Of a stretch of 64,000 bases of DNA, positions 39,942 to 59,871 are shown piece by piece (the first letter of the stretch is position 1; every line of letters begins with the position of its first letter). The DNA is from Patescibacteria group bacterium (GTDB lineage: Bacteria; Patescibacteriota; Patescibacteriia; Magasanikbacterales; GWA2-37-8), in assembly GCA_004321885.1 (NCBI GenBank), contig SCQK01000013.1, positions 32,001 through 96,000 of the forward strand. The letters run 5' to 3'. The position numbers and the translations under genes are program-made. Under the pieces are notes generated by a model, which ran no database searches, had not been told where the DNA came from, and saw nothing but the letters and a program-made list of their open reading frames with translations.

Positions 39942-41000
39942 CTATTTTTTCTTCAACGTCGTTATCGGCCTACTTTGAGTAATGTATACTGTACCGCTTT
40001 CCATGGCCCATTCAATATCACAAGGGAAACCATAGTGTTGCTCAATTTTCTTGCACACCTTGGCCACTTCAATAATTTCTTTGCCGGTCAGCTTCTGCTT
40101 ACCCCCCTCTTTCTCACTCAACTCAATCCATTTGTTGGAGTCTCTCCCCTTTATAAGGGGAGAGTTAGTGAGGGGTAATTTCGCTTTCACCAACTTCTTC
40201 GTCTGTACTCCAACATTTATATCTACAATACTCATTTCGCTTTTGGAAACAATATAACTGTCGGGTGTAATCTGGCCGCTCACAATCGCTTCGCCCAATC
40301 CAAACCCGGCCTCAATAATCATCTGGTCGGGGTCTTCAGTAACCGGGTGCACAGTAAAGGCGATGCCCGAAATTTCCGACTGCACCATTTTCTGCACCAC
40401 TACCGCGACCGAAACATAATGGTCAATCAGTTTTTTTTCGTGACGATAAAAAATCGCGCGGGGGGTGAAAAGCGAAGACCAGCATTGCTTAACTTTTTCA
40501 ACAACGTTAACGCGCGTGGTGTTCAAATAGGTTTCCAGCTCCCCGGCCCAACTGGCCACGTCGCTGTCCTCGGCCGTAGCGCTGCTTCTCACCGCCACCA
40601 GGTTGTCATCCTGAACTTGTTTCAGGATCCCCGTTCGCCGTCTGTCATTCAGACCCCGCTTAGCGGGGGAGGAATCCCTCCCGCCCAACTCATCAAACGC
40701 CCCCAATATCTCATTCTCCAAATCTTTCGGCATGGGCGTGTCGTGTATCACATCGCGCAAAACATTACTCGCCTTGTCCACGCTGTTGGTGTCTTCGGGA
40801 TCCACGTCAGCCAATCGCGCCTCAATCTCTTCTTTCAATTTCGTTTCCTCAATAAATCTGTCAAACGCGCTCGCCAATACCACAAAACCCGGCGGCACAC
40901 GCAGTTTCGCTTTAGTCATCTCGCCAAGCGAAGCGCCCTTCCCGCCCGCGCTGGCCACATCTTTCTTGGAAATATCCTTAAAAAATTTTATGTGAGGCAT
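39942..41000 (-). CDS. Stand-alone PEP-synthase/PPDK N-terminal ATP-grasp (nucleotide-binding) domain protein. Carries two in-frame palindromic insertions.
   Basis: VASAGGKGASLGEM...VAVRSSATAED...CDIEWAMESGTVYITQSRP is collinear with the N-domain of the ppsA at 53413..56379 and stops at the domain boundary. Insertions sit at 40143-40177 (family 2) and 40607-40632 (family 3). Confidence 0.8.
   Translation of the reverse strand: MPHIKFFKDISKKDVASAGGKGASLGEMTKAKLRVPPGFVVLASAFDRFIEETKLKEEIEARLADVDPEDTNSVDKASNVLRDVIHDTPMPKDLENEILGAFDELGGRDSSPAKRGLNDRRRTGILKQVQDDNLVAVRSSATAEDSDVASWAGELETYLNTTRVNVVEKVKQCWSSLFTPRAIFYRHEKKLIDHYVSVAVVVQKMVQSEISGIAFTVHPVTEDPDQMIIEAGFGLGEAIVSGQITPDSYIVSKSEMSIVDINVGVQTKKLVKAKLPLTNSPLIKGRDSNKWIELSEKEGGKQKLTGKEIIEVAKVCKKIEQHYGFPCDIEWAMESGTVYITQSRPITTLKKK
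40143..40177. repeat. Family-2 palindromic repeat (TCTCCCCTTTATAAGGGGAGAGTTAGTGAGGGGT), in-frame in the ATP-grasp ORF.
   Basis: Shared with 54371-54409; a variant sits at 27169-27220; a related core lies at 34730-34765. Confidence 0.8.
40607..40632. repeat. Family-3 palindromic repeat (CATCCTGAACTTGTTTCAGGATCCCC), in-frame in the ATP-grasp ORF.
   Basis: Identical to 62591-62616 and near-identical to 63041-63066. Confidence 0.85.
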
Positions 41001-41036: not shown

Positions 41037-41459
41037 CTATTTAATATATTCACCGATGATCTTCATAAACTTTTTTATATCTCCACTTTCCGCTTTTAGC
41101 TCGGTCAAAAATCGTTTCATGTCAATGTCTTCGTACTTGTGCACTATCCTGTTGCGCAAACCGACTATCGGAGCCAGTTTTAGAGCAAACGCCATGGGCA
41201 AAATTTTATTCTGGCCAAGCGTGATAAATGTGCTTTGATAATCTTCGGGCGCCTGCAAATTTTTCTCGGCGATAATATGCGTGTTGATATCTACCATACA
41301 GTCCACAATGAGCTGAAACAAGCGCTCAATCGCGTGCAATTTCGTCTCATCCTGAATTAAATCAAAAACATCGTCTTCTAAAAGCGCGTCCAACTCTTTC
41401 TGATACCCGCCGATGTCGGTGAGTTTGTTGTAAATAAGCGTTTTGTTGGTCATACACAC
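41037..41459 (-). CDS. HepT-like (DUF86) toxin, second copy.
   Basis: RNRIVHKY (Rx4HxY). Confidence 0.75.
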   Translation of the reverse strand: MCMTNKTLIYNKLTDIGGYQKELDALLEDDVFDLIQDETKLHAIERLFQLIVDCMVDINTHIIAEKNLQAPEDYQSTFITLGQNKILPMAFALKLAPIVGLRNRIVHKYEDIDMKRFLTELKAESGDIKKFMKIIGEYIK

Positions 41460-41462
41460 AAT

Positions 41463-41864
41463 TTAAGCCAAAAATTTTTGAAGTTGTTTATGCCTTAATT
41501 CATAAAGCGGTTTCGCCTCAACATATCTCTTAAACGCGTACATGCGAAATTTGGCAAACTCGCCGACTTTATCCTCGTATAGAGGAACTCCGTCTCGCCC
41601 TATTTGCAGCATAAGTAACGGCGACGCTCCGCGCGCGTTCACCACTTCCACGTCGCCGCGGCCAAATATATGGCAAAAATTTTCCCGCAACCCGGCTTCT
41701 TCATAATAAGAAATTGGCCCTTTTGTTTTGACGGCAATATCAATGTCGCTGTATTTATGCGTTTTTCCGCGCGCGGCCGAACCAAATAATACGACGAAAT
41801 CAAGACCAGCTTGTTTAGCCGCCTTTTTTATCGCTGTCTTTGTTGTTGAATTTATGACTTTCAT
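41463..41864 (-). CDS. MntA-like nucleotidyltransferase antitoxin, second copy.
   Basis: GSAARGKTHKYSDIDIAV. Confidence 0.8.
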   Translation of the reverse strand: MKVINSTTKTAIKKAAKQAGLDFVVLFGSAARGKTHKYSDIDIAVKTKGPISYYEEAGLRENFCHIFGRGDVEVVNARGASPLLMLQIGRDGVPLYEDKVGEFAKFRMYAFKRYVEAKPLYELRHKQLQKFLA

Positions 41865-41908: not shown

Positions 41909-42229
41909 TTAATCAATTTTTCTCACAATTCCCTTCTCCGCGTCCACCTCCACCATATCGCCATTTTTAATCTTCCACAAAATTTCTTCCGAAAGACCGA
42001 CAATCGCCGGTTTGTTATTTTCGCGCGCCACAATAGCCGCGTGAGAAGTTACCCCGCCATGCACTGCCAAAATCGCCTTCACTTTTTTAGCCAGCGCCGC
42101 GTTTGGTTTGACTTGATTCAATAACACAATATTCTCTTCCGTGCAATGAGCAAATTGGTCAGTATGATTAATAATACAAACCAGCCCGCTCGCCTTGCCG
42201 GGACAAGCAGAAATTCCTTTGAATTGCAT
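41909..42229 (-). CDS. Stand-alone PEP-utilizing-enzyme mobile (phosphohistidine swivel) domain protein.
   Basis: ACPGKASGLVCII...HGGVTSHAAIVARENNKPAIVG...GDMVEVDAEKGIVRKID; 106 aa. Confidence 0.8.
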   Translation of the reverse strand: MQFKGISACPGKASGLVCIINHTDQFAHCTEENIVLLNQVKPNAALAKKVKAILAVHGGVTSHAAIVARENNKPAIVGLSEEILWKIKNGDMVEVDAEKGIVRKID

Positions 42230-43319: not shown

Positions 43320-44828
43320 TCAAATTCTCCTCACCACCCCTTTATACCCATCCACCTCCAACCAATCCCCATCTTTCACCACCTCGCGCACAAACCTGGT
43401 TTGTATTACTCCCGGAATTTTGGCTTCCCGCGCAAGCGTGGCCGGGTGCGTCGTAATACCATGCCCGCCATCGCAAACCAAACCTGCCGCTTTCATAATA
43501 GCTGTGGAGAAACTGGGTACCACTTGAATACTGACGATAATATCTCCCTTCTGCACTTTATCGCATTCATCGGGATGCAAAATTACACGCGCTGGCCCCT
43601 TGGCGACTCCGGGCGAAACCGGCATACCGGTAAACTCTTTAGCGTTCTTATCTACTTTACAGAAAAGATTAAACAATCTTTCGGCCTGACTTCTCTCAAC
43701 TATCTTCATTGGCTGTCCGCGCCGACAATACCACAACATCAGTTCTATCCTTTCGTTAATATCAAAAGATAATTCTTTTCCTTTGATCAAAGCCGTTCTT
43801 ATCTCTTCTATTTTTAAGTGCCTGACCTGATTCAGACTCAAATAGAATCTGCGGCCAATCTCTTTCAAAACGCTATCAAAATAATACAAAGATTCGGAAA
43901 CGTAGCGCTTGCGCAATTCTTTCAAGTAAGCCACATGGCGCATGGAATTGAAAGAATCTTGTTCTTGCTTGCTGAAGTTCAATCTGGCCAAATATCTCTT
44001 TCTTTCGCTTTCATTTTTAGCCAAGTTACCGACCAATTTCTCATATTCCTTCCTCACATTGAGTATGAGATAGCCGGTCAAACGTTGAACTATCGATCTA
44101 AAATCCAAAACGGAGTCTTCGTAATCACGCGTTACCCAAAAATAATTTCTTTCATGCTTCCTTATAAGATTACTAAGTTTAGAATCTTTTTTAATGGCGT
44201 CTATATCTTTGGTTGTGACCAGAGAAACCCAATGTTTATCGGCTAAAATCCTTAACGCCAATTCAAACAACGCCTTCAATTCAACAGTCGCCACCATGGC
44301 GCTGGGTTCGCGCGTTAAAATGTCCAAAACTACCGCGGCCTTCCTTTTGTCCGCCACTTTGCCTTCCACCATACGTAGCAGGTCGGCGATATAATGGTCT
44401 TCCGTAATCCAAATCCATCCGTACCGAGCGTACACCTCTTTGTATTTTTTTTCATAATCAGCGAAAAATTCGTACAATGTCTGATTGCTTATTCTTTCTA
44501 AATTAGAATTGCCTGCTTTCTTGGCAAAAGCCACTAAACGCGCACCGTAGATATGCTGTTCTTTAATGAACTTGCCGACCAATTTTGAATCATAATGAAT
44601 TTTATCGGACATGTCGCGAGCAACCTCTTCGTAACCCTTCCTACCAATAAACATGTAGTGTACGTTATGCGTGCAAAAATAAAGTACCTCTCCGAGGGCA
44701 AAGCCGACGGCACTTTTCATCTCATTGCAGACAGCCTCCATTGAAAAATAATTAGGAAACGGACTGACGCGTTGGCGTTGAGACTTAAATACCCAGTGGT
44801 CGATATCCGTTGAAAATTTAACTGGCAT
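43320..44828 (-). CDS. Two-domain protein: about 400-aa N-domain of unknown function plus a C-terminal PEP-utilizers swivel domain (paralog 1 of 4).
   Basis: C-terminus: GMPVSPGVAKGPARVIL...DGGHGITTHPATLAREAKIPGV...GDWLEVDGYKGVVRRI. Confidence 0.7.
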   Translation of the reverse strand: MPVKFSTDIDHWVFKSQRQRVSPFPNYFSMEAVCNEMKSAVGFALGEVLYFCTHNVHYMFIGRKGYEEVARDMSDKIHYDSKLVGKFIKEQHIYGARLVAFAKKAGNSNLERISNQTLYEFFADYEKKYKEVYARYGWIWITEDHYIADLLRMVEGKVADKRKAAVVLDILTREPSAMVATVELKALFELALRILADKHWVSLVTTKDIDAIKKDSKLSNLIRKHERNYFWVTRDYEDSVLDFRSIVQRLTGYLILNVRKEYEKLVGNLAKNESERKRYLARLNFSKQEQDSFNSMRHVAYLKELRKRYVSESLYYFDSVLKEIGRRFYLSLNQVRHLKIEEIRTALIKGKELSFDINERIELMLWYCRRGQPMKIVERSQAERLFNLFCKVDKNAKEFTGMPVSPGVAKGPARVILHPDECDKVQKGDIIVSIQVVPSFSTAIMKAAGLVCDGGHGITTHPATLAREAKIPGVIQTRFVREVVKDGDWLEVDGYKGVVRRI

Positions 44829-44858: not shown

Positions 44859-46082
44859 TTAAATTTTTCTCACAATCCCTTTCTCCGCGTCCACCTCCAC
44901 CATATCGCCGTCTTTTAAAACCTTAGTCGCGATTTTCGTGCCGATAATACAAGGTATACCTAACTCACGGCTGACGATGGCAGCATGCGCGGTTAACCCT
45001 CCCTCGTCGGTCACGATAGCGGCCGCCTTTTTGACCGCCGTTATCAACGACGGCGTGGTCATGGATGAAACTAAAATATCACCCTTCTGCATCTTGACCT
45101 GATCTTCCCGCGTGATAACAATTTTGACCTTGCCGCGCACCTTTCCCTTGGATGCCACGAAGCCAATAATTTTATCCACCACCGCTGTTTTGTCTTCTTC
45201 AAAATAAAGCTTAAAATAATTCTGCGCCTTTTCGCCGCTTAAAATTTTTAATTTTCTCCGGCTGATCAGCAATATATAAAATTGTTGGCGGCGTTTCATT
45301 TCGCTTTCGGGCATTTTCTTGCCACCCAAATAATCGCGCAAGCTGACCGGATCGTACCAATCCAATTCAGCCAATTCTTTTTCGTTGTTGATGACCTTTC
45401 GCAAATGATCTAATAGCTGATCGTAAAGATAAGACGACACTCTTTCCCCCATTTCGTAAAAGTAAGTGAACCATGATAAAATTTCCGCAAGCTCTTTTTC
45501 TTTGGCGGTTAATTTTAGCCGTCGTGCAAGATCCTCTCTTTTTCTAATCAATCGCGGACTAGAACAATGCAATTGGTTTAATAGCCCGACAACCGCTTTC
45601 GGCACTGATAAAGTTGATAAGACATCGTCCAGCTCGCGCGCCGATACTTTCGCCGCCAGTAATTTTTTCAGCCGCTGTGCAACAGACTGCTCACCCCAGT
45701 AGCTATAGACAATAGCGCCACGCCCATAAGCGTGATATTTCATGAACAAACTGATGTAACTCCTCAAATCTTTGCGGGTCAAATTTTTATTCTCGTACTT
45801 TCTGCCCCAGTTATAACCTTGGATTAGCAACTTAACTATAATGTCACCCAAACGAGAAATATTTTTCCCTTTAAATTCTCGCAGAATAATTTTCTGCTGT
45901 CTTTTTTTGTCCGCGGGGTCAAAGTATAACGAGGTAACTCTGCCGCGGCCGACAATCGGACTTCTGGCTATTTTCGCCCGCCCAAATTTACCAATGCTCT
46001 GCGCATAAGCAATGGTGCGAAATCCGCGATCAAGCAAAGTATTTTCACGTGTTAATTGTTTGACGTATTTGACTTTGGACAT
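44859..46082 (-). CDS. Unknown N-domain plus C-terminal PEP-utilizers swivel domain (paralog 2).
   Basis: C-terminus: KGKVRGKVKIV...DEGGLTAHAAIVSRELGIPCIIG...GDMVEVDAEKGIVRKI. Confidence 0.7.
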   Translation of the reverse strand: MSKVKYVKQLTRENTLLDRGFRTIAYAQSIGKFGRAKIARSPIVGRGRVTSLYFDPADKKRQQKIILREFKGKNISRLGDIIVKLLIQGYNWGRKYENKNLTRKDLRSYISLFMKYHAYGRGAIVYSYWGEQSVAQRLKKLLAAKVSARELDDVLSTLSVPKAVVGLLNQLHCSSPRLIRKREDLARRLKLTAKEKELAEILSWFTYFYEMGERVSSYLYDQLLDHLRKVINNEKELAELDWYDPVSLRDYLGGKKMPESEMKRRQQFYILLISRRKLKILSGEKAQNYFKLYFEEDKTAVVDKIIGFVASKGKVRGKVKIVITREDQVKMQKGDILVSSMTTPSLITAVKKAAAIVTDEGGLTAHAAIVSRELGIPCIIGTKIATKVLKDGDMVEVDAEKGIVRKI

Positions 46083-46879: not shown

Positions 46880-48361
46880 TCAAATTTTCTTCACAATCCC
46901 CTTTGTCGCATCCACTTCCACCATGTCGCCGTCTCTGAAAACCTTAGTGGCGATTTTCGTGCCAATCACGCAGGGAATACCGAGTTCGCGCGAGACGATA
47001 GCCGCATGGCAGACAATGCCGCCCATATCAGTAACTATCGCCGACGCCTTTTTCATGGCCGCCACGATTTCCGGTATGGTCATTTCCGAAACCAACACAT
47101 TTCCACTTACCATTTTTTTCATATCCTCTATGGTATTTACAATCGTTACTTTCCCTTTGGCCGCGCCCGGAACCGCGGTTTGCCCCCGCAGTTCTTGAAC
47201 TGATAAATCCACTTCTTCCTCACGAGCCATATTCATTTTTGACATTACGTATCTCGCTTCTTCGCCAACAATAAACTTGGATCCATTGGCGTCCACATAT
47301 AGTAAACTATATTTCCAACGTTCATTTAATTCATCCGCGTCGCACTGCCCGCTTCTAATCGCAGAAGGAACTTCTTGTGGCAAAAAATATCGCGCTTGAC
47401 GAATTGAAATAAGCAATCTTTTTGCTACTTCCCGCAGTATTTTATCAAGCGCATAAAATCCTAAAAATTGGTGCTCTTTGCTCCATGCCTTTTGATAAAC
47501 AAGGTCTTTGGTAACGCGAAATAAATGCTTGTGTTTTTCATCAATTTTTAAATTATCAAACCAGGCGTTTTGTTTTTTTTCAGCTTCAAAAAACTGATTT
47601 TTCTGACGCAAAATTTCTTGCTCAATATCGGTCCCAGCTTCTATAATCTCCTGAATATGCTTTACCACATCCTTCTCTGTCCAAGTCGGCCCTTCACAGG
47701 CAAAGGGCAAAAAACAATACTTCCGCGCATGCGCCGCAATTTTTTCCTCCCCAACGGATAATTGAATTTTGCCTTCCACAACTTCCTTCGCCAGCTCATA
47801 AAGTTCCAAATGTTCCTGTGTACCCAAAGCCGGCTTTGTCAGCGTGAGTAAATCAGCCAAAACAAGAACGGCATCTATATCAGGATTAAACTTTTTTAAA
47901 TAGTTCAATAAATATATTCCTAATTGTTCAAACGGAATTTCCAAAAGCCAACTCGGAACACGATATAAGTGTAATTCCGTCTGTAACGGCAACAGTTGTT
48001 CGTAAATTCGCGCGAGTTCTTCGTTGGATAACTTTGATAAATCACTCTCAATAATTTTCCAGGCATAATTTCTAAGCTGCGGTAAAATTTTATCTGATTT
48101 TACATGCATATCATCAATGAGCCGGGGATTTTCCACAATTGCTTCTAAAGTTTTTTTACCGGCCACTATCCATTCATTGCGAATATAGAATAACTTTGTC
48201 GCGCCGTTTTCATACAAAGGAAGGCTGTGTGCCACATCGGCAAGCCCCAGCTTGCTCAATTCGCTTGTCATGGCGCGAAAAGGCGGCTCCAATGTAATGG
48301 GAGGATACTGATACAACTTCTCAATCATTATCCATTCTTTTCTTAACAATTCTTCATTCAT
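46880..48361 (-). CDS. Unknown N-domain plus C-terminal PEP-utilizers swivel domain (paralog 3).
   Basis: C-terminus: AVPGAAKGKVTIV...DMGGIVCHAAIVSRELGIPCVIG...GDMVEVDATKGIVKKI. Confidence 0.7.
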   Translation of the reverse strand: MNEELLRKEWIMIEKLYQYPPITLEPPFRAMTSELSKLGLADVAHSLPLYENGATKLFYIRNEWIVAGKKTLEAIVENPRLIDDMHVKSDKILPQLRNYAWKIIESDLSKLSNEELARIYEQLLPLQTELHLYRVPSWLLEIPFEQLGIYLLNYLKKFNPDIDAVLVLADLLTLTKPALGTQEHLELYELAKEVVEGKIQLSVGEEKIAAHARKYCFLPFACEGPTWTEKDVVKHIQEIIEAGTDIEQEILRQKNQFFEAEKKQNAWFDNLKIDEKHKHLFRVTKDLVYQKAWSKEHQFLGFYALDKILREVAKRLLISIRQARYFLPQEVPSAIRSGQCDADELNERWKYSLLYVDANGSKFIVGEEARYVMSKMNMAREEEVDLSVQELRGQTAVPGAAKGKVTIVNTIEDMKKMVSGNVLVSEMTIPEIVAAMKKASAIVTDMGGIVCHAAIVSRELGIPCVIGTKIATKVFRDGDMVEVDATKGIVKKI

Positions 48362-49836
48362 ATTTTTCTCACAACCCCACTTGTCGCGTCAACCTTCACC
48401 ATATCGCCGTCTTTGAGTACGGAAGTGATTTTTTTCACGCCCACCACGCAGGGAATTTTAAATTCGCGCGCCACAATGGCCGCATGGCAAGTGATGCCGC
48501 CGTCCTCCGTCACGATAGCCGAGGCGCGTTTCATAGCCGGCAACATCGCCGGATAAGTCGTGAGCGCCAACATAATATCTCCTTTTTCCACCTTATCCGC
48601 GTCTGTTAACGATAGAACAACTTTTACTTTGCCTGAAACAAAACCCGGATACGCGGTGGCGCCCTTAAATCCGTCTTCAACATTTAATTTTATTTCTTCA
48701 ATATCCAAGCCGGCTATAATCGCGTCGGCCTCTTTGCCGTAATAATACTTTGTTCCGCTTTCAGTCGCTTCAATCACGCAATGCTTAATTCTCTCATTTA
48801 TTAAATCAATGTCCAATTTGTCACGCAATAGAGCGTTTTCCATTTCGTCCGTCAAAAAATGATTCGCTTGTTTATGCGATATATTCAATCGCTTGGCAAT
48901 TTCTTTGGTGAGCATGTCCAAAACATAGTGCCCATGCCAAATACAATATTTTCTGAGATCCTTAAGCCAAATAATCTCGCGGGCGATGGCGAACAATCGC
49001 GCGAGCTGCGGGGGCAAGTTGATTTCGGAAATTACTTTATTTTGTTCCGCGATGAGTTTCTCGTAGCGTTCTTTTTCTTCTTTGAGCATTTGGTCCGGGT
49101 CAGTTACGCGAGGCAGGGCTTCCTTAACCTGCTCTTCATAATATTTCAAATCATAAGCCGGCCCGATATAGCCGTATGGCGTCCAGCGCCATTTTTGCCA
49201 ATGCTTTGTTATTAATTCTTTGTACTGGATTCCCGCTTTCGCGGGAATGACAACGGCCTTAAGCAACTCCAAAAAATCCAATTGCTCCAACTGGACAAAA
49301 TTCTGTTTAGCCGGAGTGGTAAGCAGAACAAAATATTCTATTGTTTTTACCGGATCATCTATGCCTAAACTTTTTAAATGTTCTCCTAATTTTTGCTTTA
49401 AATACTCCGAAAAAATCATGCCGTCGCTGTCCACAAACCAAGTGGTGGCGATTGATGGAAGATGACCTTGCTCGGTAAGCCATAAAAGCGTTTTGTAGTA
49501 ATCAAAAAGCTCGGCATTGTTTAGCGCGCCAAAATCTTTTCCCACCAAACTTTGAGCGTAATTAAAATAATCCCAATTTAATTTTTCGGTTCGCGCATGC
49601 AATTCCTCTGCCCACTGCGGCTCGGTAATAATTTTTTCCGCAATCCATTTCACCGTCGTTTCTATTACTTCAACCGGCACATACGCCGTATCCCTGTCGT
49701 TTCTATAATCTTGATACCAAACAGTAAATAATTGTTTGCCATTCTTTTTTGGAATATGCGCAAAAATCCCTTGGGGGTAATAGCCCAGCATGTTAAAATT
49801 CACGTCGCGGATATCAAAATTTATTCGCCATTTCAT
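48358..49836 (-). CDS. Unknown N-domain plus C-terminal PEP-utilizers swivel domain (paralog 4).
   Basis: C-terminus: AYPGFVSGKVKVV...EDGGITCHAAIVAREFKIPCVVG...GDMVKVDATSGVVRKI. Confidence 0.7.
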   Translation of the reverse strand: MKWRINFDIRDVNFNMLGYYPQGIFAHIPKKNGKQLFTVWYQDYRNDRDTAYVPVEVIETTVKWIAEKIITEPQWAEELHARTEKLNWDYFNYAQSLVGKDFGALNNAELFDYYKTLLWLTEQGHLPSIATTWFVDSDGMIFSEYLKQKLGEHLKSLGIDDPVKTIEYFVLLTTPAKQNFVQLEQLDFLELLKAVVIPAKAGIQYKELITKHWQKWRWTPYGYIGPAYDLKYYEEQVKEALPRVTDPDQMLKEEKERYEKLIAEQNKVISEINLPPQLARLFAIAREIIWLKDLRKYCIWHGHYVLDMLTKEIAKRLNISHKQANHFLTDEMENALLRDKLDIDLINERIKHCVIEATESGTKYYYGKEADAIIAGLDIEEIKLNVEDGFKGATAYPGFVSGKVKVVLSLTDADKVEKGDIMLALTTYPAMLPAMKRASAIVTEDGGITCHAAIVAREFKIPCVVGVKKITSVLKDGDMVKVDATSGVVRKI

Positions 49837-51004: not shown

Positions 51005-52186
51005 TCAAGCAATCACTCCCCCGCCCAAACATTCACCTTTAAGATAAAATACCGCGAACTGACCCGGGGTGACGGCGCGTTGGGGGTGAGTGAAAGTAAC
51101 TAAAGGGAGGGAAACAGTGCATCTCTGCAAAGGTTGACGGTGACGCAGGCGCACCTGGCATTTTAGCGGGAAATTGGGTGTGTTTCCACTTATCCAATTT
51201 ACGTCTTTGACCCTTGCTTCCATACTGTACAGCATATCGCTTTTCTCGTCGCCGACAATCAGTTCGTTCTTTTTTATATTCTTACCGACAACAAAGAGAG
51301 GCAACGCGCTGGATTCCCCCGTACTTAGTCGGGGGAATGACAAACTGATACGTTGGCCGATGGTGTAAAACGCCAGGCCATCGTGCTGGCCCACGACTTT
51401 ACCCCTCTCTCGCCACCGCCGCGAGGCGGGGCCCCGCCGTGGCGGTGGCTCTCCCCTTGTAAAGGGGAGAGAGAGCACTATGTTCCCGGGTTTGAATTTT
51501 ATCTTTTTCATCAAAAATTCTTTCATCGGCACTTCGCCGATGAAACAAATGCCCATGCTTTCTTCTTTTTCCGCCGTGGGCAAGCCGAATTTTTTTGCCA
51601 GGGCGCGCACCTGTGGTTTGGCATACTCACCGATGGGAAACAAAACGTGGCGCAGTTGTGCTTGAGATAATTGATTCAAAAAATATGTTTGGTCTTTATT
51701 GAGATCTTTTGACTGCAAGAGGTGCAGAACCCCACCCCCCTTTCGTTCCCCCTTTATTAAGGGAGGAAGAAACGCGTAGTGTCCAGTCGCTAATTTATCA
51801 AACCCTAACGCACGGGCTTTATCCAGCCAGGCGCCAAACTTGATGAATTTATTGCACAAAACATCCGGATTGGGCGTGCGGCCGGCCTTGTACTCGCTAT
51901 ACATGTAATCCAAAACATCGCGCTTGTATTTGCGCGTAAAATCCAGCTTCAAAAGTTTAATGCCCAGTTTGGCGGCCACGCGCAAGGCGTCGCGATAATC
52001 GCCGGTCCAACAGCGCGATCCCACCCCCCCTTCGCCCCCCCCTCTGGCATGAGGGGATATTTTCTCATCATAGTTCACCATGAACGCGCCGCTTACGTTA
52101 TATCCTTGCTTAACCAAAAGAGCGGCGGCAACGGACGAATCCACGCCGCCGGACATGGCGACTAAAATTTTTTGCTTTTTTTTCAT
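51005..52186 (-). CDS. mnmA: tRNA-specific 2-thiouridylase MnmA with several in-frame palindromic insertions.
   Basis: ILVAMSGGVDSSVAA PP-loop. Gly/Pro/Arg-rich insertions at 51310-51345 (family 1), about 51410-51478, about 51740-51770 and about 52020-52060. Confidence 0.85.
   Translation of the reverse strand: MKKKQKILVAMSGGVDSSVAAALLVKQGYNVSGAFMVNYDEKISPHARGGGEGGVGSRCWTGDYRDALRVAAKLGIKLLKLDFTRKYKRDVLDYMYSEYKAGRTPNPDVLCNKFIKFGAWLDKARALGFDKLATGHYAFLPPLIKGERKGGGVLHLLQSKDLNKDQTYFLNQLSQAQLRHVLFPIGEYAKPQVRALAKKFGLPTAEKEESMGICFIGEVPMKEFLMKKIKFKPGNIVLSLPFTRGEPPPRRGPASRRWRERGKVVGQHDGLAFYTIGQRISLSFPRLSTGESSALPLFVVGKNIKKNELIVGDEKSDMLYSMEARVKDVNWISGNTPNFPLKCQVRLRHRQPLQRCTVSLPLVTFTHPQRAVTPGQFAVFYLKGECLGGGVIA
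51310..51345. repeat. Family-1 palindromic repeat, copy D, in-frame inside mnmA (encodes LSFPRLSTGESS).
   Basis: The reverse complement equals copy C. Confidence 0.85.
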
Positions 52187-52253
52187 AACAATATAATACC
52201 ACACAAAACAAAAACTGCCAGCCTTGCGGCCGGCAGTTTCTTGTTTGCAGTAA

Positions 52254-52565
52254 TTACCTATCGCGCCTGGCCCGCAGACATTCTCTGCAGTAAACCGGCT
52301 TGTCGCCGGTGGGCTGGAAGGGCAACTCGGTGATCTTGCCTCCGCACTGGGCGCAGGTCAAGTCCACCTGGTACATCTGGCGCGGAGCGCCAAACGAGCG
52401 TCCGCCGCCGCTCGGGCGGGTCTGGCGGTACGCGCGATTGCATTCATTGCAATACACGGGTCTGTCGCCGGACGGCTGGAAGGGCAGCTGTGAAATATGG
52501 GTCCCGCATTTGCCGCAGGAAAGGTCCACATCGTACATCTGCCTAGTGCTGTTGTCAAAAGCCAT
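52254..52565 (-). CDS. Small protein with two tandem zinc-ribbon repeats (CGKCGTHISQLPFQPSGDRPVYCNEC and CAQCGGKITELPFQPTGDKPVYCREC).
   Basis: Internal duplication read directly; paralogous to the motif in 19719..20228. Confidence 0.5.
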   Translation of the reverse strand: MAFDNSTRQMYDVDLSCGKCGTHISQLPFQPSGDRPVYCNECNRAYRQTRPSGGGRSFGAPRQMYQVDLTCAQCGGKITELPFQPTGDKPVYCRECLRARRDR

Positions 52566-52910: not shown

Positions 52911-52929
52911 GAAGCCAACAATTTAACTT

Positions 52930-52984
52930 GGGTCGGTAGTTCAACTGGTTAGAGCATCCCGACTGAGTCGGGAAAGTTGCGGGT
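52930..52984 (+). pseudogene. tRNA-like 5' fragment, from acceptor to the 5' side of the T-stem. Its body is identical to tRNA-Asp, but the anticodon arm is TCCCG-ACTGAGT-CGGGA.
   Basis: GGGTCGGTAGTTCAACTGGTTAGAGCA is shared with tRNA-Asp. No T-loop or 3' acceptor follows it. The anticodon arm resembles the family-1 palindrome core. Confidence 0.55.
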
Positions 52985-53245
52985 ATGGAGGTAATTTTAT
53001 ATTATATTTACAGTAAAAAACTGAATAAATACTACTTAGGAAAAACCAATGATTTGGAGCGACGTTTTATAGAGCATAATAACGGTGAAGAAATTTTTAC
53101 CAGAACTGGTATTCCATGGAAATTAGTTGGATTTATTAAAGCCAGCGCGAAGATAATTAGTAAATTAGAGTATAAACTAAAAAAAGCAAAAAATCCAAAA
53201 TACGTTTATTGGTATTTCAATCAACACGGAACTGTATTGGAATAA
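52985..53245 (+). CDS. Small GIY-YIG nuclease-domain protein (YhbQ/UPF0213-like).
   Basis: ILYYIYSKK...YYLGKTNDLERRFIEHNNG covers the GIY, YIG, Arg, Glu and Asn positions; 86 aa. Confidence 0.6.
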   Translation: MEVILYYIYSKKLNKYYLGKTNDLERRFIEHNNGEEIFTRTGIPWKLVGFIKASAKIISKLEYKLKKAKNPKYVYWYFNQHGTVLE

Positions 53246-53250
53246 TGAGC

Positions 53251-53324
53251 GGGTCGGTAGTTCAACTGGTTAGAGCACTGCCCTGTCACGGCAGAAGTTG
53301 CGGGTTCGAGTCCCGTCCGACCCG
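53251..53324 (+). tRNA. tRNA-Asp (anticodon GTC).
   Basis: Hand-folded cloverleaf. Acceptor GGGTCGG/CCGACCC, U8, D-arm, anticodon stem CTGCC/GGCAG with loop CTGTCAC, T-loop TTCGAGT, discriminator G. No encoded CCA. Confidence 0.85.
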
Positions 53325-53346
53325 CTTATTATTCCATCAAAGCAAG

Positions 53347-53405
53347 CTGGTTAGAGCATCCCGACTGAGTCGGGAAAGTTGCGGGTTCGAGTCCCGTCCG
53401 ACCCG
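53347..53405 (+). pseudogene. tRNA-like 3' fragment, from D-loop to the 3' acceptor. It complements the 5' fragment at 52930-52984 and has the same variant anticodon arm.
   Basis: CTGGTTAGAGCATCCCGACTGAGTCGGGAAAGTTGCGGGTTCGAGTCCCGTCCGACCCG. The 5' acceptor strand is missing. Confidence 0.55.
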
Positions 53406-53412
53406 CATAAAA

Positions 53413-56379
53413 CTATTTAACCGAGAACAAAGTAAACCAGCCGAGCATCTCGTCAAAGGTTTTTTTGTCGCCAGAAATTTCTATGATGTTTTTGGATTTT
53501 TTGAAACCTTGGGGATAAAGCTCCATTAATTTTGTGCCGTCGGCGCGAGTATAAATTTTGGCCGGAATATTTTGCCATACAGTTGTGGTAGACGAACCGG
53601 ACAGAGAACCCCCGGTCGCCTCAGGCGACCTCGGGATGACAGCTGAGGCTATTATAAACCGGCTTAACTTATCGGCCGACTGAAAACGCACCACCTTGTC
53701 CCCGTGCTCCACTGTCCAGGCCGCCGGATATTGCAAAGTAAACCGCGCGAAAGAATCCTCGCTGTACAAACTCTTGGGCTGTTCGCTTTCCCGCTTGCGA
53801 ATCTCGGCCGCCAGCTGTTCCAGCTGCGTTTTCAATTTTCCGGTTTCTTCCACGATGGCTTTTTTCACGTTTTCGTTCACAATCTGATTATTGGGCTGGC
53901 AGGCGTAGCCGCCCAGCGTGGAAAGCAAACCCACCACGCCAAAAATCAACAACAATTTCGTAGCCGCCGCTATTTTTATAATGGCGCCTTTTTTGGCCGA
54001 AACTTTTTTCTCCAGCCCGGCCACCCGCTCGCGCGCCTTTAGCACCGTGTCCGGATTAAGCGAAATGCTGTCTATCCCCTCTTGCACCAAAAAATCGGCG
54101 AACTCGGGATAGTCAGAGGGCGCCTGACCGCAGATGCCCACCTTGCGTCCATACTTGTGCGCCGTGGAAATCACCTGTCGTATCAAAGTTTTTACGGCCT
54201 CGTTTCTTTCATCATACACATGGCTCACCAAAGCGCTGTCGCGATCAACACCTAGGGTCAACTGGGTTAAATCGTTGGAGCCGATGCTAAAGCCGTCAAA
54301 AATCTGGCTGTACTCTTTGGCCAAAATCACGTTGGAAGGAATCTCGCACATCACGTAAACTTTCAAGCCAGACCCCTCACTAACTCTCCCCTTATAAAGG
54401 GGGGAGGAGCTTCCTCGCTCCAATCCGAATTCTTTCATCACAGCCAGCACCTTTTTTCCCTCGGCCACGGTGCGGCAAAACGGCACCATCACGATTATAT
54501 TTTTCAGCCCCCACTCTTCACGCGCCATTTTCAATGCCGCGCATTCCAGCCTAAAACCGGGCTTGTAGGCCGGGTCATAATAGCGCGAAGCCCCGCGCCA
54601 GCCCAGCATGGGGTTTTCTTCTTTGGGCTCGTACAAATGCCCGCCGATAAGCGTGGCGTATTCATTGGTTTTGAAATCAGACAAGCGCACAATAACATCG
54701 CGCGGATAATACGCGGCCGCGATAAAAGCGATGCCCTCGGCCAGCTTGTCCACGCAGTACCGGGCCTTGTCTTTGTAGCCGATGGTCAGCTCGTCAATTT
54801 TGGCTTTCAATTCCCGGTCCGCCAATTTTTTGTAATTTACCAAAGCGAGCGGATGGATTTTTATAAAATTGGTGAAAATAAATTCCTCGCGCGCCAGGCC
54901 CACGCCGTCACTGGGGATATGCGACAAAGCAAAAGCGCTGCCCGGGTCGCCCACGTTCATCATTATTTTGGTGCGGGTTTTGGCAATGGCTTTTATTTCC
55001 TGTTTTTCTATTTCAAAAGGCAGGCGCCCTTTGTACACATAACCGGCCTCGCCCTCGGCGCAGGAAACAGTCACTTCCTGCCCGGGCTTCACAATCTGAC
55101 GCGCCCTGGCCGCGCCCACCAGGCACGGCGTGCCCAGCTCGCGGCTGACAATAGCCGCGTGCGAGGTCTTTCCCCCCTGCTCCGTGACAATGGCCGAGGC
55201 AATGCGCATTATCGGCTCCCAATCCGGGTCCGTAATGCGCGTAATCAAAACTTCGCCTGGCCGAAAGCTCTTCATCTGCCTGGGCGAGTTTATTACCCGC
55301 GCTTTGCCCTGACCGATTTTTTGCCCGATGCTGATTCCCTCCACCAAAACTTTGCCTTTTTGTTTCAAATGGTACTGCTCTATTACATTTATATTGTCGC
55401 GCGAACGCACTGTTTCGCTGCGCGCCTGCACGATATAGAGTTTTCCGCTCCGTCCGTCTTTGGCCCACTCTATATCCATGGGCCGCTGGTAATGCTCTTC
55501 TATTTGCATGCCCCACTTGGCCAGTTGCAAGACTTCGTCCGGGGAAACGCAGAACCGGTGCTGGTCCGGCATTTTTACTGTTTCCTGCCTGGTGCCTGTT
55601 TTTCCGTAAACAAGTTTTACTTCTTTGCTCCCCAGCCGCTTGCTGATGATTGATTTCAATCCGCGCCGAACCCCATCTTTGAAAACAAAAAACTGGTCCG
55701 GTATCACCCGGCCCTTGACCACATATTCGCCCAAGCCATAAGCCGCGTTTATAAGCACCACGCCCTTAAAACCCGACTCGGTGTCCAGAGTGAACATCAC
55801 GCCGCTGGCGCCCAAATCCGAACGCACCATTTCCTGCACGCAAACCGAAAGCGCCACAGCCGCGTGGTCAAAGCCCTTGTCCACGCGATAGGAAATGGCG
55901 CGGTCCGTAAAAAGAGAAGCAATACATTTCTGGCAGGCTAAAATAAGTTCATCGGCGCCGACGACATTCAAATAGGTTTCCTGCTGGCCGGCAAAACTGG
56001 CGTCGGGCAAATCCTCGGCCGTGGCCGACGAACGCACGGCCACTGAACTCTTGCCCAATTCTTTATACGCCGCTTTCAATTCATCTGCTATTATTCCTGG
56101 AAACTCGGCGCTTAAAACCATCTGGCGAATCTTGGCGCCGGCCGCGGCCAGCGATTTCACGTTTTTGCCGTCGGTCTTGTTTAGAATTTCTTTTATTTTT
56201 TTATCCAATTTGTCCTCACGCAAAAAAAGCCGGTAGGCGTCGGCAGTAAGAGCGAACCCGTTTGGCACGGCCACTCCATTGGCAGTCAAATTATTATACA
56301 TCTCGCCCAGCGACGCGGTCTTGCCGCCCACGCTGGGAATGTCTTTGATGCCGAGTTCCTTAAACCAGCGGATATACAT
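53413..56379 (-). CDS. ppsA: Phosphoenolpyruvate synthase (pyruvate, water dikinase), full length, with an extra C-terminal extension of about 190 aa that contains a TM helix.
   Basis: ATP-grasp N-domain, swivel (QGGKTSHAAIVSRELGTPC) and PEP-binding TIM barrel (GFSIGSNDLTQL...GICGQAPSDYPEF). A family-2 insertion sits at 54371-54409. The C-terminal tail reads IIKIAAATKLLLIFGVVGLLSTLGGYAC and so on. Confidence 0.9.
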   Translation of the reverse strand: MYIRWFKELGIKDIPSVGGKTASLGEMYNNLTANGVAVPNGFALTADAYRLFLREDKLDKKIKEILNKTDGKNVKSLAAAGAKIRQMVLSAEFPGIIADELKAAYKELGKSSVAVRSSATAEDLPDASFAGQQETYLNVVGADELILACQKCIASLFTDRAISYRVDKGFDHAAVALSVCVQEMVRSDLGASGVMFTLDTESGFKGVVLINAAYGLGEYVVKGRVIPDQFFVFKDGVRRGLKSIISKRLGSKEVKLVYGKTGTRQETVKMPDQHRFCVSPDEVLQLAKWGMQIEEHYQRPMDIEWAKDGRSGKLYIVQARSETVRSRDNINVIEQYHLKQKGKVLVEGISIGQKIGQGKARVINSPRQMKSFRPGEVLITRITDPDWEPIMRIASAIVTEQGGKTSHAAIVSRELGTPCLVGAARARQIVKPGQEVTVSCAEGEAGYVYKGRLPFEIEKQEIKAIAKTRTKIMMNVGDPGSAFALSHIPSDGVGLAREEFIFTNFIKIHPLALVNYKKLADRELKAKIDELTIGYKDKARYCVDKLAEGIAFIAAAYYPRDVIVRLSDFKTNEYATLIGGHLYEPKEENPMLGWRGASRYYDPAYKPGFRLECAALKMAREEWGLKNIIVMVPFCRTVAEGKKVLAVMKEFGLERGSSSPLYKGRVSEGSGLKVYVMCEIPSNVILAKEYSQIFDGFSIGSNDLTQLTLGVDRDSALVSHVYDERNEAVKTLIRQVISTAHKYGRKVGICGQAPSDYPEFADFLVQEGIDSISLNPDTVLKARERVAGLEKKVSAKKGAIIKIAAATKLLLIFGVVGLLSTLGGYACQPNNQIVNENVKKAIVEETGKLKTQLEQLAAEIRKRESEQPKSLYSEDSFARFTLQYPAAWTVEHGDKVVRFQSADKLSRFIIASAVIPRSPEATGGSLSGSSTTTVWQNIPAKIYTRADGTKLMELYPQGFKKSKNIIEISGDKKTFDEMLGWFTLFSVK
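54371..54409. repeat. Family-2 palindromic repeat, in-frame in ppsA (encodes SSPLYKGRVSEGSG).
   Basis: The reverse complement matches 40143-40177. Confidence 0.8.
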
Positions 56380-56419: not shown

Positions 56420-59279
<2,860 letters not shown>

Positions 59280-59325
59280 AACTGTTATTTTAACATAAAA
59301 CGGCTGACTTATGCAACTGCCGGCT

Positions 59326-59366: not shown

Positions 59367-59389
59367 ATATTATGGGGTACCCAATAATA

Positions 59390-59827: not shown

Positions 59828-59871
59828 AAATTCACCCCCTCTCTATGCGTAAAGTTTCTTGACATATCGTA

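What the first reader, a model, noticed from the sequence alone, without database searches (positions are those of the whole stretch)
53413..54000. PEP synthase with an extra C-terminal segment of about 190 aa containing a TM/signal-like helix
The PpsA homolog is complete through the usual C-terminal end (…GIDSISLNPDTVLKARERVAGLEKK). It then continues in-frame for about 190 residues with a basic stretch, a hydrophobic helix (IKIAAATKLLLIFGVVGLLSTLGGYAC) and a Ser/Thr-rich soluble region. Two explanations fit: a gene fusion or loss of a stop codon joining a downstream membrane-anchored or lipoprotein-like gene, or a genuinely membrane-tethered PEP synthase. A cytoplasmic central-metabolism enzyme with a C-terminal membrane anchor is unusual.
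Basis: partly seen in the sequence, partly recalled or inferred. Interest (0 to 1): 0.5.

Follow-up and report, generated by a model that had tools for sequence, protein, structure and literature searches.

The report
Membrane-anchored PEP synthase with outside domain
This bacterium's PEP synthase, normally a free cytoplasmic enzyme, carries a conserved membrane-spanning helix and a small PsbP-like domain predicted to sit outside the cell, and related bacteria keep this tail even after losing the enzyme's catalytic residues.

Summary
ORF 53413..56379 (-) encodes 988 aa. Residues 1-792 are a complete PpsA with all catalytic motifs intact. A 196-aa tail with no Pfam or NCBIfam match follows in the same frame.

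It is not an assembly error. About 98 of the 120 closest homologues carry the full tail. All 19 related loci from species-representative genomes (Magasanikbacteria and other Patescibacteria) have it in frame with PpsA, with no stop between.

The tail consists of:
- a basic linker;
- a hydrophobic helix with positive-inside charge bias;
- the motif L-x-G-[YF]-x-C-Q, with Gly and Cys invariant in 98/98;
- a variable helical stalk;

The best reading is an N-in/C-out membrane-tethered PEP synthase that arose by an old gene fusion.

Same-locus relatives (downstream of ligA) have lost catalytic His407 and other motifs but keep the helix, the Cys motif and the ectodomain. In one, LigA is 64% identical to the window's while the PpsA-like body is only 32%. 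The tail therefore appears to have a function that does not depend on catalysis.

Whether the protein is cleaved or lipidated at the invariant Cys is untested. I found no published description.

The parts
54004..56379 (-). PEP synthase body, residues 1-792. PPDK_N 55390..56337; swivel phospho-His domain 55051..55266, with His407 at 55159..55161 in GGKTSHAAIVSRELG; PEP/pyruvate domain 54013..54999, with SNDLTQ and with Cys750 at 54130..54132 in GICGQAPS.
   Evidence: Pfam. NCBIfam equivalogs NF005057 at 1160 bits and TIGR01418 at 1125 bits, both above their cut-offs. Closest solved structure is PpsA 2ols, E 1e-263, aligned to query residue 782. T405, H407, N702, D703 and C750 are invariant in the 120 closest homologues.
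54370..54405 (-). 12-aa insertion (residues 659-670, SPLYKGRVSEGS) in a surface loop of the PEP-binding domain. It is encoded by a copy of a small palindromic repeat and is not part of the tail.
   Evidence: Absent from all 119 other homologues. The repeat CTCCCCCCTTTATAAGGGGAGAG also occurs at 40142 and 51449, against 0 matches expected by chance. pLDDT is below 50 at residues 665-668.
53980..54003 (-). Basic linker VSAKKGAI (residues 793-800), equivalent to the n-region of a signal sequence.
   Evidence: pLDDT below 50 in the tail-only model. The full-length model draws it as helix, at low confidence. Mean net charge of the 15 residues upstream of the helix is +3.5 across homologues, against -0.4 downstream.
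53914..53979 (-). Predicted transmembrane helix IKIAAATKLLLIFGVVGLLSTL (residues 801-822).
   Evidence: KD19 of 2.13, the maximum of the whole protein. Helix in both AF2 models. 114 of 120 homologues reach KD19 >= 1.6 at this place and 3 more reach 1.50-1.57. Mean pairwise identity of the TM plus Cys-motif region (801-828) is 48%, against 24-30% for the rest of the tail.
53896..53916 (-). Juxtamembrane motif L-G-G-Y-A-C-Q (residues 822-828; Cys827 at 53899..53901). A possible processing, lipidation or disulphide site.
   Evidence: Across 98 long tails: G(-3) 98/98, C(+1) 98/98, L(-5) 95/98, Y/F(-2) 90/98, a small residue at -1 in 96/98, Q(+2) 83/98. 87 of 98 have no other Cys downstream. G824 and C827 remain invariant when divergent non-catalytic relatives are added.
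53785..53886 (-). Helical stalk (residues 832-865), variable in sequence.
   Evidence: Helix 40-73 of the tail model and 833-866 of the full-length model. Mean pairwise identity 24%.
53416..53775 (-). PsbP/Mog1-fold beta domain (residues 869-988), predicted to be extracytoplasmic. It carries the Y-P-x-x-W motif (Y884, P885, W888).
53413..53415 (-). Stop codon TAA of the fused ORF.

Best explanation
The ORF is a real, conserved in-frame fusion. A catalytically intact PEP synthase (residues 1-792) sits in the cytoplasm. It is followed by a short basic linker, one membrane-spanning helix, a strictly conserved G-x-x-C motif at the outer face, a helical stalk of about 35 residues, and a PsbP/Mog1-fold domain of about 120 residues on the outside (N-in/C-out). 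What is shown is the architecture, its conservation, the intact active site and the fold of the C-terminal domain. What is inferred is the topology, from hydropathy, charge bias, and the fact that most bacterial proteins among the top fold matches are periplasmic, secreted or lipoproteins. Also inferred is the origin by fusion of ppsA with a gene for a signal-anchored or lipoprotein-type secreted protein in an ancestor of a Magasanikbacteria-centred clade of Patescibacteria. The likely working model is that the helix holds the enzyme at the inner face of the membrane. This is the part retained even in lineages that truncated the tail. The outside domain acts as a binding module with a role that does not depend on PpsA chemistry, because relatives at the same locus that lost the catalytic residues still keep the helix, the Cys motif and the domain.
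For: Conservation:
- 120 best homologues are 60-77% identical. About 98 have tails of roughly 195-243 aa. Most of the rest keep linker plus helix only.
- 19 related loci from species-representative genomes all have the tail in the PpsA frame with no stop. 13 of them have complete open frames of 985-1047 aa.

Helix and topology:
- The helix is present in 114-117 of 120 homologues. Net charge is +3.5 upstream and -0.4 downstream.

Motif and domain:
- The Cys motif is invariant in 98/98.
- The AF2 tail model has pLDDT 82.9, with the domain mostly above 90.
- The PsbP/Mog1 fold is found by two methods.

Distribution of the tail module:
- A profile search of 1.84 billion cluster representatives gave only 93 hits. 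Of these, 28 are proteins of at least 840 aa with the match at the C-terminal end (26 with a BLAST-detectable PpsA body, 2 with only a weak PPDK_N match). Another 14 are shorter pieces that still include part of a PpsA body. The remainder are short ORFs holding the tail only (mostly fragments, a few complete stand-alone proteins) and weak hits to stand-alone secreted proteins with an N-terminal helix. The module was not seen fused to any other enzyme.

Intact active site:
- T405, H407, N702, D703 and C750 are invariant in all 120 close homologues.

Independent role of the tail:
- P0146, P0129, P0135 and P0141 align end to end with the window protein (E <= 1e-132), but His407 is F or Y and the NDLTQ and GICGQ motifs are degraded. 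The tail is kept.
- P0146 and P0129 lie downstream of ligA, as in the window.
- Window versus L026: LigA 64% identical, PpsA-like body 32%, tail 26%. Window versus L001: LigA 57%, PpsA body 72%.

Truncated forms:
- Short-tail forms are nested among long ones in an NJ tree of the enzyme body.
Against: - No topology, signal-peptide or lipoprotein predictor could be run, and there is no experimental localisation.
- The PsbP/Mog1 fold also includes cytoplasmic or nuclear members such as Mog1, so the fold alone does not prove an outside location.
- The NJ tree is midpoint-rooted and has no support values.
- The function of the outside domain is unknown. Its conserved residues are mostly hydrophobic core, so no ligand site is evident.
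- Whether genomes with a non-catalytic relative carry another functional ppsA was not checked.
Confidence: 0.7

Rival explanations
1. Two products from one ORF. The linker, helix and G-x-x-C act as an internal (lipo)protein signal peptide. After the C-terminal part is translocated, a signal peptidase cuts just before Cys827: LspA after lipidation by Lgt, or signal peptidase I. This releases a surface lipoprotein or secreted PsbP-like protein and leaves PpsA tail-anchored by the retained signal peptide.
For: - The layout is n-region (basic), h-region (about 14-16 uncharged residues after Lys808), helix-breaking G-G, small residues at -3 and -1, and Cys at +1 invariant in 98/98, usually the only Cys of the tail.
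- A subgroup has L-G-A-G-C (P0120, P0151, P0155, P0171). This resembles N-terminal lipoprotein-like signals of neighbouring genes in related genomes, such as IAGAG|C in L025.
- P0155 is a separate ORF with an in-frame stop just upstream and an N-terminal lipoprotein-like signal.
- Clades that lost the outside domain also lost the Cys and end as PpsA plus helix, which is the proposed cleavage product.
Against: - The signal lies about 800 residues from the N-terminus, and I know of no precedent for Lgt/LspA acting there.
- The main motif G-[YF]-[TGS]-C is not the canonical lipobox [LVI][ASTVI][GAS]C. Thr at -1 and Tyr at -2 are atypical.
- AF2 models a 22-residue helix long enough to be a stable anchor.
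- The presence of lgt and lspA in these genomes was not tested.
Confidence: 0.2
2. Receptor-type enzyme. The outside domain binds a ligand or partner, for example from a host cell or the envelope. Through the helices of a PpsA dimer it changes the activity or oligomeric state of the cytoplasmic enzyme, as in bitopic Ser/Thr kinases of the PknB type.
For: - The topology is the same as that of bitopic receptor enzymes: N-terminal cytoplasmic catalytic domain, one helix, C-terminal outside domain.
- The linker is short and is modelled as continuous with the last PpsA helix (H776-822, low confidence).
- The helix has small-xxx-small spacing and is the best conserved part of the tail.
- The functional unit of PpsA is taken to be a dimer by homology with PPDK (bioRxiv 10.1101/2022.08.11.503304, read).
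Against: - No conserved polar pocket is visible in the outside domain.
- Two clades dropped the outside domain yet keep an intact enzyme.
- Relatives keep the outside domain after losing catalysis, so regulating PpsA chemistry cannot be its only role.
Confidence: 0.15
3. Artefact of this assembly: a missed stop codon or a frameshift near 53990-54010 (two A6 runs lie there) joins PpsA to a separate downstream gene.
For: The junction DNA (GAGAAAAAAGTTTCGGCCAAAAAAGGC) contains homopolymer runs that are prone to sequencing error.
Against: The same in-frame junction is found in 19 related loci from species-representative genomes and in about 98 of 120 nearest homologues from many studies and sources. 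An identical 988-aa protein is on record from an NCBI assembly (P0001). Apparent stand-alone tails (P0142, P0214) are fragments at contig ends.
Confidence: 0.01
4. The hydrophobic helix is not a membrane span but a cytoplasmic oligomerisation element, like the C-terminal helix that builds archaeal 24-mer PEP synthases. The whole tail would then stay in the cytoplasm.
For: Archaeal PpsA uses a C-terminal helical motif to form 24-mers (bioRxiv 10.1101/2022.08.11.503304; 24-chain entries 9dae and 8a8e). Mog1, one of the fold matches, is not extracellular.
Against: - KD19 of 2.13 with a flanking positive-inside charge bias is typical of a membrane span.
- The sequence alignments to the archaeal enzymes end at query residues 794-797 and do not cover the tail.
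- The bacterial proteins among the top fold matches are mostly periplasmic, secreted or lipoproteins.
- Weakly related stand-alone proteins carry the domain behind an N-terminal signal anchor.
Confidence: 0.04

Closest known systems
Bacterial PEP synthase PpsA (pyruvate, water dikinase; TIGR01418 / NF005057; Neisseria meningitidis structure 2OLS, 794 aa)
   Same: Same three-domain enzyme with the phospho-His swivel domain and Cys-containing PEP/pyruvate domain. Scores above the equivalog cut-offs. E 1e-263 to 2OLS over query residues 2-782.
   Different: Known PpsA proteins end at about 790-800 aa and are soluble (own knowledge). This one continues for 196 aa with a membrane helix and a PsbP-like domain.
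Archaeal multimeric PEP synthases (Pyrococcus furiosus 24-mer; Staphylothermus marinus MAPS)
   Same: PpsA with a functionally important C-terminal addition (24-chain entries 9dae and 8a8e).
   Different: There the addition is a short helical oligomerisation motif of about 20 residues with a conserved Met, and it is cytoplasmic. Here it is a 196-aa tail with a hydrophobic span and a folded beta domain, with no sequence similarity to the archaeal motif.
PsbP/Mog1-fold proteins (PsbP and CyanoP, Tsi3, TplEi, LpqN, MTC28, DcrB, BT_1490; Pfam PsbP PF01789 and PsbP_2 PF18933)
   Different: Identity is 9-16% and no Pfam model passes its threshold. None of the listed members is fused to a cytoplasmic enzyme.
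Bitopic receptor-type enzymes such as PknB-family Ser/Thr kinases (own knowledge)
   Same: N-terminal cytoplasmic catalytic domain, single helix, C-terminal outside domain.
   Different: The catalytic part here is a central-metabolism enzyme, not a signalling kinase. No ligand is known.
Membrane-anchored aminoacyl-tRNA synthetases of cyanobacteria (CAAD domain; PMC4893482, seen)
   Same: Housekeeping cytoplasmic enzymes that acquired a membrane anchor in one lineage.
   Different: The anchor type is different and there is no outside globular domain (from the title and abstract only; the paper was not read in full).

Membership tests
PEP synthase (PpsA; TIGR01418 / NF005057) | Three domains in order: PPDK_N, PEP-utilizers swivel, PEP-utilizers_C | tested here: met
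   Pfam 15-330, 372-443 and 461-789, E 8e-119, 1e-23 and 6e-63
PEP synthase (PpsA; TIGR01418 / NF005057) | Score above the curated equivalog cut-off | tested here: met
   NF005057 1160.2 bits against 598; TIGR01418 1124.9 against 739.75
PEP synthase (PpsA; TIGR01418 / NF005057) | Catalytic phospho-His (T-S-H) in the swivel domain, Cys in GICGQ, and the NDLTQ motif | tested here: met
   GGKTSHAAIVSRELG (His407), GICGQAPS (Cys750) and IGSNDLTQ are present and invariant in 120 close homologues. The functional assignment of these residues is from my own knowledge of PpsA, PPDK and Enzyme I.
PEP synthase (PpsA; TIGR01418 / NF005057) | Pyruvate + ATP + H2O <-> PEP + AMP + Pi activity | not testable with these tools
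   Needs an enzyme assay of residues 1-792 or of the full-length protein in membranes
PsbP / PsbP_2 (Pfam PF01789, PF18933) | Sequence match above the Pfam gathering score | tested here: not met
   No hit for the window tail. Only 4 of 36 tails hit PsbP_2 (best E 0.042) and 1 hits PsbP (E 0.039)
PsbP/Mog1-like fold | Antiparallel beta sheet with flanking helix that superposes on PsbP, Mog1 or Tsi3 | tested here: met
Bacterial lipoprotein (Lgt/LspA substrate) | N-terminal signal peptide | tested here: not met
   The signal-like segment lies at residues 793-826 of a 988-aa protein
Bacterial lipoprotein (Lgt/LspA substrate) | Lipobox [LVI][ASTVI][GAS]C with invariant Cys | tested here: inconclusive
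   Cys is invariant in 98/98, but -3 is Gly (98/98), -2 is Tyr/Phe (90/98) and -1 is Thr in 58/98. A subgroup has L-G-A-G-C
Bacterial lipoprotein (Lgt/LspA substrate) | lgt and lspA present in the genome | not tested
   Only 64 kb of this genome was available, and neither gene was looked for in it
Single-span N-in/C-out (type II) membrane protein | One hydrophobic segment of at least 19 residues with a positive-inside charge bias | tested here: met
   KD19 of 2.13 at residues 800-818; the rest of the protein reaches at most 1.39. Net charge +3.5 upstream and -0.4 downstream across homologues. No dedicated predictor was available
Archaeal multimeric PpsA (MAPS type) | Short C-terminal helical oligomerisation motif with a conserved Met | tested here: not met
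   The alignments to 9dae and 8a8e end at query residues 797 and 794. The tail has no sequence match to any PDB chain (best E 0.29)

The most novel reading that the evidence does not exclude
The lasting, selected function of this protein family may not be PEP synthesis. It may instead be something done at the membrane or cell surface by the helix, the invariant Cys and the PsbP-like domain. The PpsA body would then serve as a cytoplasmic module that can lose its chemistry. Under this reading the window protein is a bifunctional (moonlighting) enzyme. It could also be a precursor cut at Cys827 into a tail-anchored PpsA and a surface (lipo)protein. The recurrent gene order PilM, response regulator, pilins, PilD, LigA, PpsA hints at a link with the type IV pilus and cell-surface apparatus of these episymbiotic bacteria. 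So does one short scaffold on which the same domain follows a pilin N-terminus.
Probability: 0.3. Interest if true: 0.75.

Novelty: new variant of a known kind. Interest (0 to 1): 0.58.

Why it matters
PEP synthase is a textbook soluble enzyme of central carbon metabolism. A clade-wide version built like a receptor (cytoplasmic enzyme, one membrane helix, outside domain) would place the PEP/pyruvate/ATP node at the membrane in Patescibacteria. These are bacteria with minimal metabolism that depend on host cells.

Relatives at the same locus keep the tail after losing the catalytic His. This gives a concrete, testable case of an enzyme turning into a membrane pseudoenzyme. It also points to an unknown surface or envelope function. 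In addition, it warns annotators that the roughly 880-1040-aa 'phosphoenolpyruvate synthase' entries in these genomes are neither all ordinary nor all catalytic.

Tried and rejected
- Word-indexed searches with the tail. The single-sequence search found nothing, not even the identical database protein. The search with alignment A1 found only two fragments. This is a limit of the index, not evidence of absence: the full-length search and the exhaustive profile search did find the family.
It worked with the narrower alignment A2.
- The afdb50 fold library was unavailable.
- P0001 is not on record in the look-up of encoding contigs.
- Apparent stand-alone tail proteins. P0142 and P0214 start 16-20 nt from contig ends, so they are fragments of fused genes. 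Only P0155 has an in-frame stop upstream, and its contig is too short to show the neighbouring gene.
- Split-gene idea. I tested whether short-tail genomes encode the missing domain in a downstream gene. The ORFs downstream in L001 and L002 are unrelated, and an HMM of the tail finds nothing else in the window or in L001-L003.
- No paralogue of the tail domain exists in the window.
- Internal translation start or frameshift at the A-runs. There is no ATG, GTG or TTG at the junction. The Met of the usual 'MEKK' is Leu here. The zero-frame tail is conserved as protein in every homologue, so this was not pursued.
- The window holds no clear N-terminal lipoprotein from which to derive the organism's own lipobox.
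- Seven literature searches and two papers read found no description of a membrane-anchored or PsbP-fused PEP synthase.
Full report
**1. What is in the sequence**

The minus-strand ORF 53413..56379 encodes 988 aa (DNA read).

- Pfam finds the three PpsA domains: PPDK_N at 15-330, the PEP-utilizers swivel domain at 372-443, and PEP-utilizers_C at 461-789. It finds nothing on the last 197 residues.
- The NCBIfam equivalogs for PEP synthase are far above their cut-offs: NF005057 at 1160 bits against 598 (residues 2-796), and TIGR01418 at 1125 bits against 740. The tail has no meaningful hit.
- The closest solved structure is the 794-aa Neisseria PpsA 2OLS. It aligns to query residues 2-782 with E 1e-263.
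- The catalytic motifs are present: GGKTSHAAIVSRELG with His407, IGSNDLTQ, and GICGQAPS with Cys750.

So a complete PpsA is followed in frame by 196 extra residues. The finding's coordinates are correct.

**2. Artefact or real**

The full-length search returned an identical 988-aa protein from an NCBI Patescibacteria assembly, plus 119 homologues at 60-77% identity.

- About 98 of these homologues are 915-1059 aa long (all but two 967 aa or more) and carry tails of about 195-243 aa.
- Most of the others carry shorter tails of 39-70 aa. Three have almost none.

A scan of one genome per GTDB species found 19 loci. They are labelled Magasanikbacteria/Magasanikiibacteriota, Patescibacteria, Parcubacteria or Paceibacterota; several carry an obviously automatic 'uncultured Gammaproteobacteria' label.

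- In all 19 the tail lies in the same open frame as PpsA.
- 13 have complete open frames of 985-1047 aa that contain the TSHA and GIDSxS motifs.
- None has a stop at the junction.

Candidates for a separate tail gene (P0142, P0214) are fragments at contig ends.

**3. Anatomy of the tail**

From the alignment of tails, hydropathy and two AlphaFold models, the tail has five parts.

- **Basic linker** (793-800).
- **Hydrophobic helix** (801-822).
  - It has the highest 19-residue hydropathy of the whole protein: 2.13, against 1.39 for the next best segment.
  - 114 of 120 homologues reach at least 1.6 at this place, and three more reach 1.50-1.57.
  - The 15 residues upstream have a mean net charge of +3.5 and those downstream -0.4. 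This predicts N-in/C-out, with PpsA in the cytoplasm.
- **Juxtamembrane motif** L-x-G-[YF]-x-C-Q.
  - Gly(-3) and Cys(+1) are invariant in 98 of 98 long tails.
  - Leu(-5) is present in 95, an aromatic residue at -2 in 90, and a small residue at -1 in 96.
  - In 87 of 98 this is the only Cys of the tail.
- **Helical stalk** of about 35 residues, with variable sequence.
- **Beta domain** of about 120 residues, modelled at pLDDT mostly above 90. Y-P-x-x-W and a few Phe residues are conserved.

Mean pairwise identity among the long forms is 77% for the enzyme, 48% for the helix plus Cys motif, 24% for the stalk and 30.5% for the domain.

**4. Fold of the C-terminal domain**

- Foldseek independently ranks maize PsbP first (E 1.4e-4), followed by Tsi3 and Mog1.
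- A few tails give sub-threshold Pfam hits to PsbP_2 and PsbP.

This is a PsbP/Mog1-fold domain at the level of fold, not a member of the Pfam families. From my own knowledge, most bacterial proteins of this fold are periplasmic, secreted or lipoproteins that bind proteins or lipids. That agrees with the predicted outside location.

**5. Distribution and origin**

An exhaustive profile search of 1.84 billion cluster representatives found only 93 proteins with E <= 1e-3.

- 28 are proteins of at least 840 aa with the match at the C-terminal end. 26 have a BLAST-detectable PpsA body. Two (P0160, P0162) show only a weak PPDK_N match.
- 14 more are shorter pieces that still include part of a PpsA body.
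- The remainder are short ORFs holding the tail only, which are mostly fragments with a few complete stand-alone proteins. There are also weak hits to stand-alone proteins with an N-terminal signal anchor, a coil and a 'YPxxW' domain.
- The module was not seen fused to any other enzyme type.
- P0155 is a separate ORF with an in-frame stop just upstream and a lipoprotein-like N-terminus (...LIGLGAG|C).

This pattern fits one old fusion between ppsA and a gene for a signal-anchored or lipoprotein-type secreted protein.

In a rough NJ tree of the enzyme body, the short-tail forms are nested among long-tail forms. There is an 822-aa clade ending right after the helix, an 855-aa clade, and scattered singletons. 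So the outside domain was lost secondarily while the helix was kept (midpoint-rooted, no support values). The short forms lack the Cys.

**6. Relatives that lost catalysis but kept the tail**

Among the long profile hits, many have PpsA-like bodies only 15-55% identical to the window protein.

- Pairwise BLAST gives collinear, end-to-end alignments for P0146, P0129, P0135, P0141 and P0147 (E 1e-132 or better).
- His407 is replaced by Phe in P0146 and by Tyr in P0129, P0135 and P0141.
- In all five the NDLTQ motif and the GICGQ context are degraded. In P0135 the catalytic Cys itself is Ala. The nucleotide-binding motifs have also decayed.
- The helix, L-x-G-[YF]-T-C-Q and the Y-P-x-x-W domain remain.
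- In a mixed alignment of 41 full-length proteins, G824, C827, P885 and W888 are invariant, while His407 is not listed even among the >=90% conserved columns.

These relatives sit at the same locus.

- P0146 follows response regulator, pilin, PilD and LigA.
- P0129 follows LigA with one small ORF between.
- The window has the order PilM, response regulator, pilin, pilin, PilD, LigA, PpsA.

A rate comparison makes the point.

| Window compared with | LigA identity | PpsA(-like) body identity | Tail identity |
|---|---|---|---|
| L026 (P0146, His407 lost) | 64% | 32% | 26% |
| L001 (catalytic, truncated tail) | 57% | 72% | no match |

In the L026 lineage the enzyme body lost constraint while the tail did not. 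A second set of divergent members (P0156, P0181, with the L/V-G-A-G-C type of motif) lies immediately downstream of pyruvate kinase.

All 120 close homologues of the window protein keep T405, H407, N702, D703 and C750. The window protein itself should therefore be an active PpsA.

**7. How it most likely works**

*Shown:* the architecture, its conservation, the intact active site, the PsbP-like fold, and retention of the tail in non-catalytic relatives.

*Inferred:*
- The topology is N-in/C-out.
- The helix tethers PpsA to the inner face of the membrane.
- The outside domain is a binding module whose role does not depend on PpsA chemistry.

The full-length model draws one long helix from the last PpsA helix through the linker into the membrane span (H776-822). 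Confidence there is low (pLDDT about 40-60), so the coupling may be rigid but this is uncertain.

Whether the protein is processed at the invariant Cys is open.
- For processing: the n-h-c layout, small residues at -3 and -1, and the invariant Cys at +1 look like a (lipo)protein signal.
- Against it: the main motif is not a canonical lipobox, and the signal is internal.

I put about 0.2 on cleavage into two products and about 0.7 on an uncleaved tether.

What the enzyme gains from membrane location can only be guessed. Possibilities are local ATP or PEP supply, or coupling to transport or the envelope. PpsA can also run in the glycolytic direction in some archaea (Imanaka et al. 2006, cited in PMC7304191).

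**8. Comparison with what is known**

- The enzyme part is a member of the PpsA family by every sequence test.
- Known C-terminal additions of PpsA are the short helical oligomerisation motifs of archaeal 24-mers (9dae and 8a8e). These are unrelated to this tail.
- The domain order resembles bitopic receptor kinases (own knowledge).
- Acquisition of a membrane anchor by a housekeeping enzyme recalls the cyanobacterial CAAD-anchored aminoacyl-tRNA synthetases (PMC4893482, title and abstract only).
- Database entries of the clade are named simply 'phosphoenolpyruvate synthase'.
- Seven full-text searches and two papers read gave no description of the tail.

I class it as a new variant of a known kind.

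**9. Limits**

- No transmembrane, signal-peptide or lipoprotein predictor could be run, and there are no reads or expression data.
- The library behind the divergent relatives carries no taxonomy.
- I did not check whether genomes with His-less copies hold another ppsA.
- The tree is only a distance tree.

Noticed in passing
window 54372-54406, 40142-40176, 51449-51471, 27178-27210, 17853-17885; 910-941, 35406-35437, 38029-38060, 51309-51348, 32678-32699; 40605-40638, 62589-62622, 63039-63072: There are three families of short palindromic repeats: CTCTCCCCTTTATAAGGGGAGAGTTAGTGAGGGGT, TGTCATTCCCCCGACTAAGTCGGGGGAATCCA and GTCATCCTGAACTTGTTTCAGGATCCCC. Several copies lie inside housekeeping ORFs without breaking the frame. 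In ppsA the copy encodes a 12-aa loop insertion (residues 659-670) that is absent from all 119 homologues. The mnmA ORF 51005..52204 carries at least two copies and shows odd G/R/P-rich inserts. This resembles the in-frame palindromic elements of Rickettsia (own knowledge).
   Followed up: partly
window 52927-53407: A tRNA-like gene appears to be split. Its 5' two-thirds (52927-52984) runs directly into a GIY-YIG ORF (52985..53245, +). A normal tRNA-Asp(GTC) follows (53251-53325), and then the 3' part of the tRNA-like gene (53336-53407). A 40-nt direct repeat (52945-52984 = 53347-53386) is 100% identical. The anticodon stem-loop of the tRNA-like gene (TCCCGACTGAGTCGGGA) resembles one of the palindromic repeat families. 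Neither ARAGORN nor Rfam calls it a tRNA.
   Followed up: partly
window 39942-49836 (-): This is a cluster of split PEP-utilising-enzyme parts. It holds a PPDK_N-only ORF (39942..41000, 352 aa) and a 106-aa ORF that is only the swivel domain (41909..42229). It also holds four ORFs of 407-502 aa with an unknown N-terminal part and a C-terminal swivel domain (43320..44828, 44859..46082, 46880..48361, 48358..49836). A HepT/nucleotidyltransferase toxin-antitoxin pair (41037..41864) and a DUF3800 ORF interrupt the cluster. It may be a multi-substrate phosphotransfer system, and it was not studied further.
   Followed up: no
L027 487-1023 (protein P0139, 178 aa; 1044-bp metagenome scaffold): This protein has a type IV pilin N-terminus (MNKKGFTLIE...) followed by a PsbP-like domain of the same type as the PpsA tails (profile E 2.8e-35). 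It could be a real domain shuffle. A deletion between the upstream pilin gene and the ppsA tail would produce it. It could also be a chimeric scaffold. It is a single observation.
   Followed up: partly
window 56420-61924 (-); L001 37-6568; L026 293-7267; L028 522-5717: The gene order PilM, response regulator, pilin(s), prepilin peptidase PilD, LigA, fused PpsA recurs in distinct lineages. These include lineages whose PpsA-like gene has lost its catalytic residues. Another group places the fused PpsA-like gene directly after pyruvate kinase.
   Followed up: partly
window 52254-52565 (-): A 103-aa ORF made of two copies of a treble-clef zinc finger (Pfam zf_Tbcl_2, E 9e-27). The two halves are also a 101-nt direct DNA repeat at 73% identity.
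   Followed up: no
window 49839-50882 (-): A Fic-domain protein with an N-terminal winged-helix-like region lies next to the swivel-domain gene cluster.
   Followed up: no
tool behaviour: The word-indexed protein search did not return the identical database protein P0001 when queried with its last 197 residues. It found only two fragments when queried with a 36-sequence alignment of tails. A negative result from that tool for short or fast-evolving domains should not be read as absence.
   Followed up: yes
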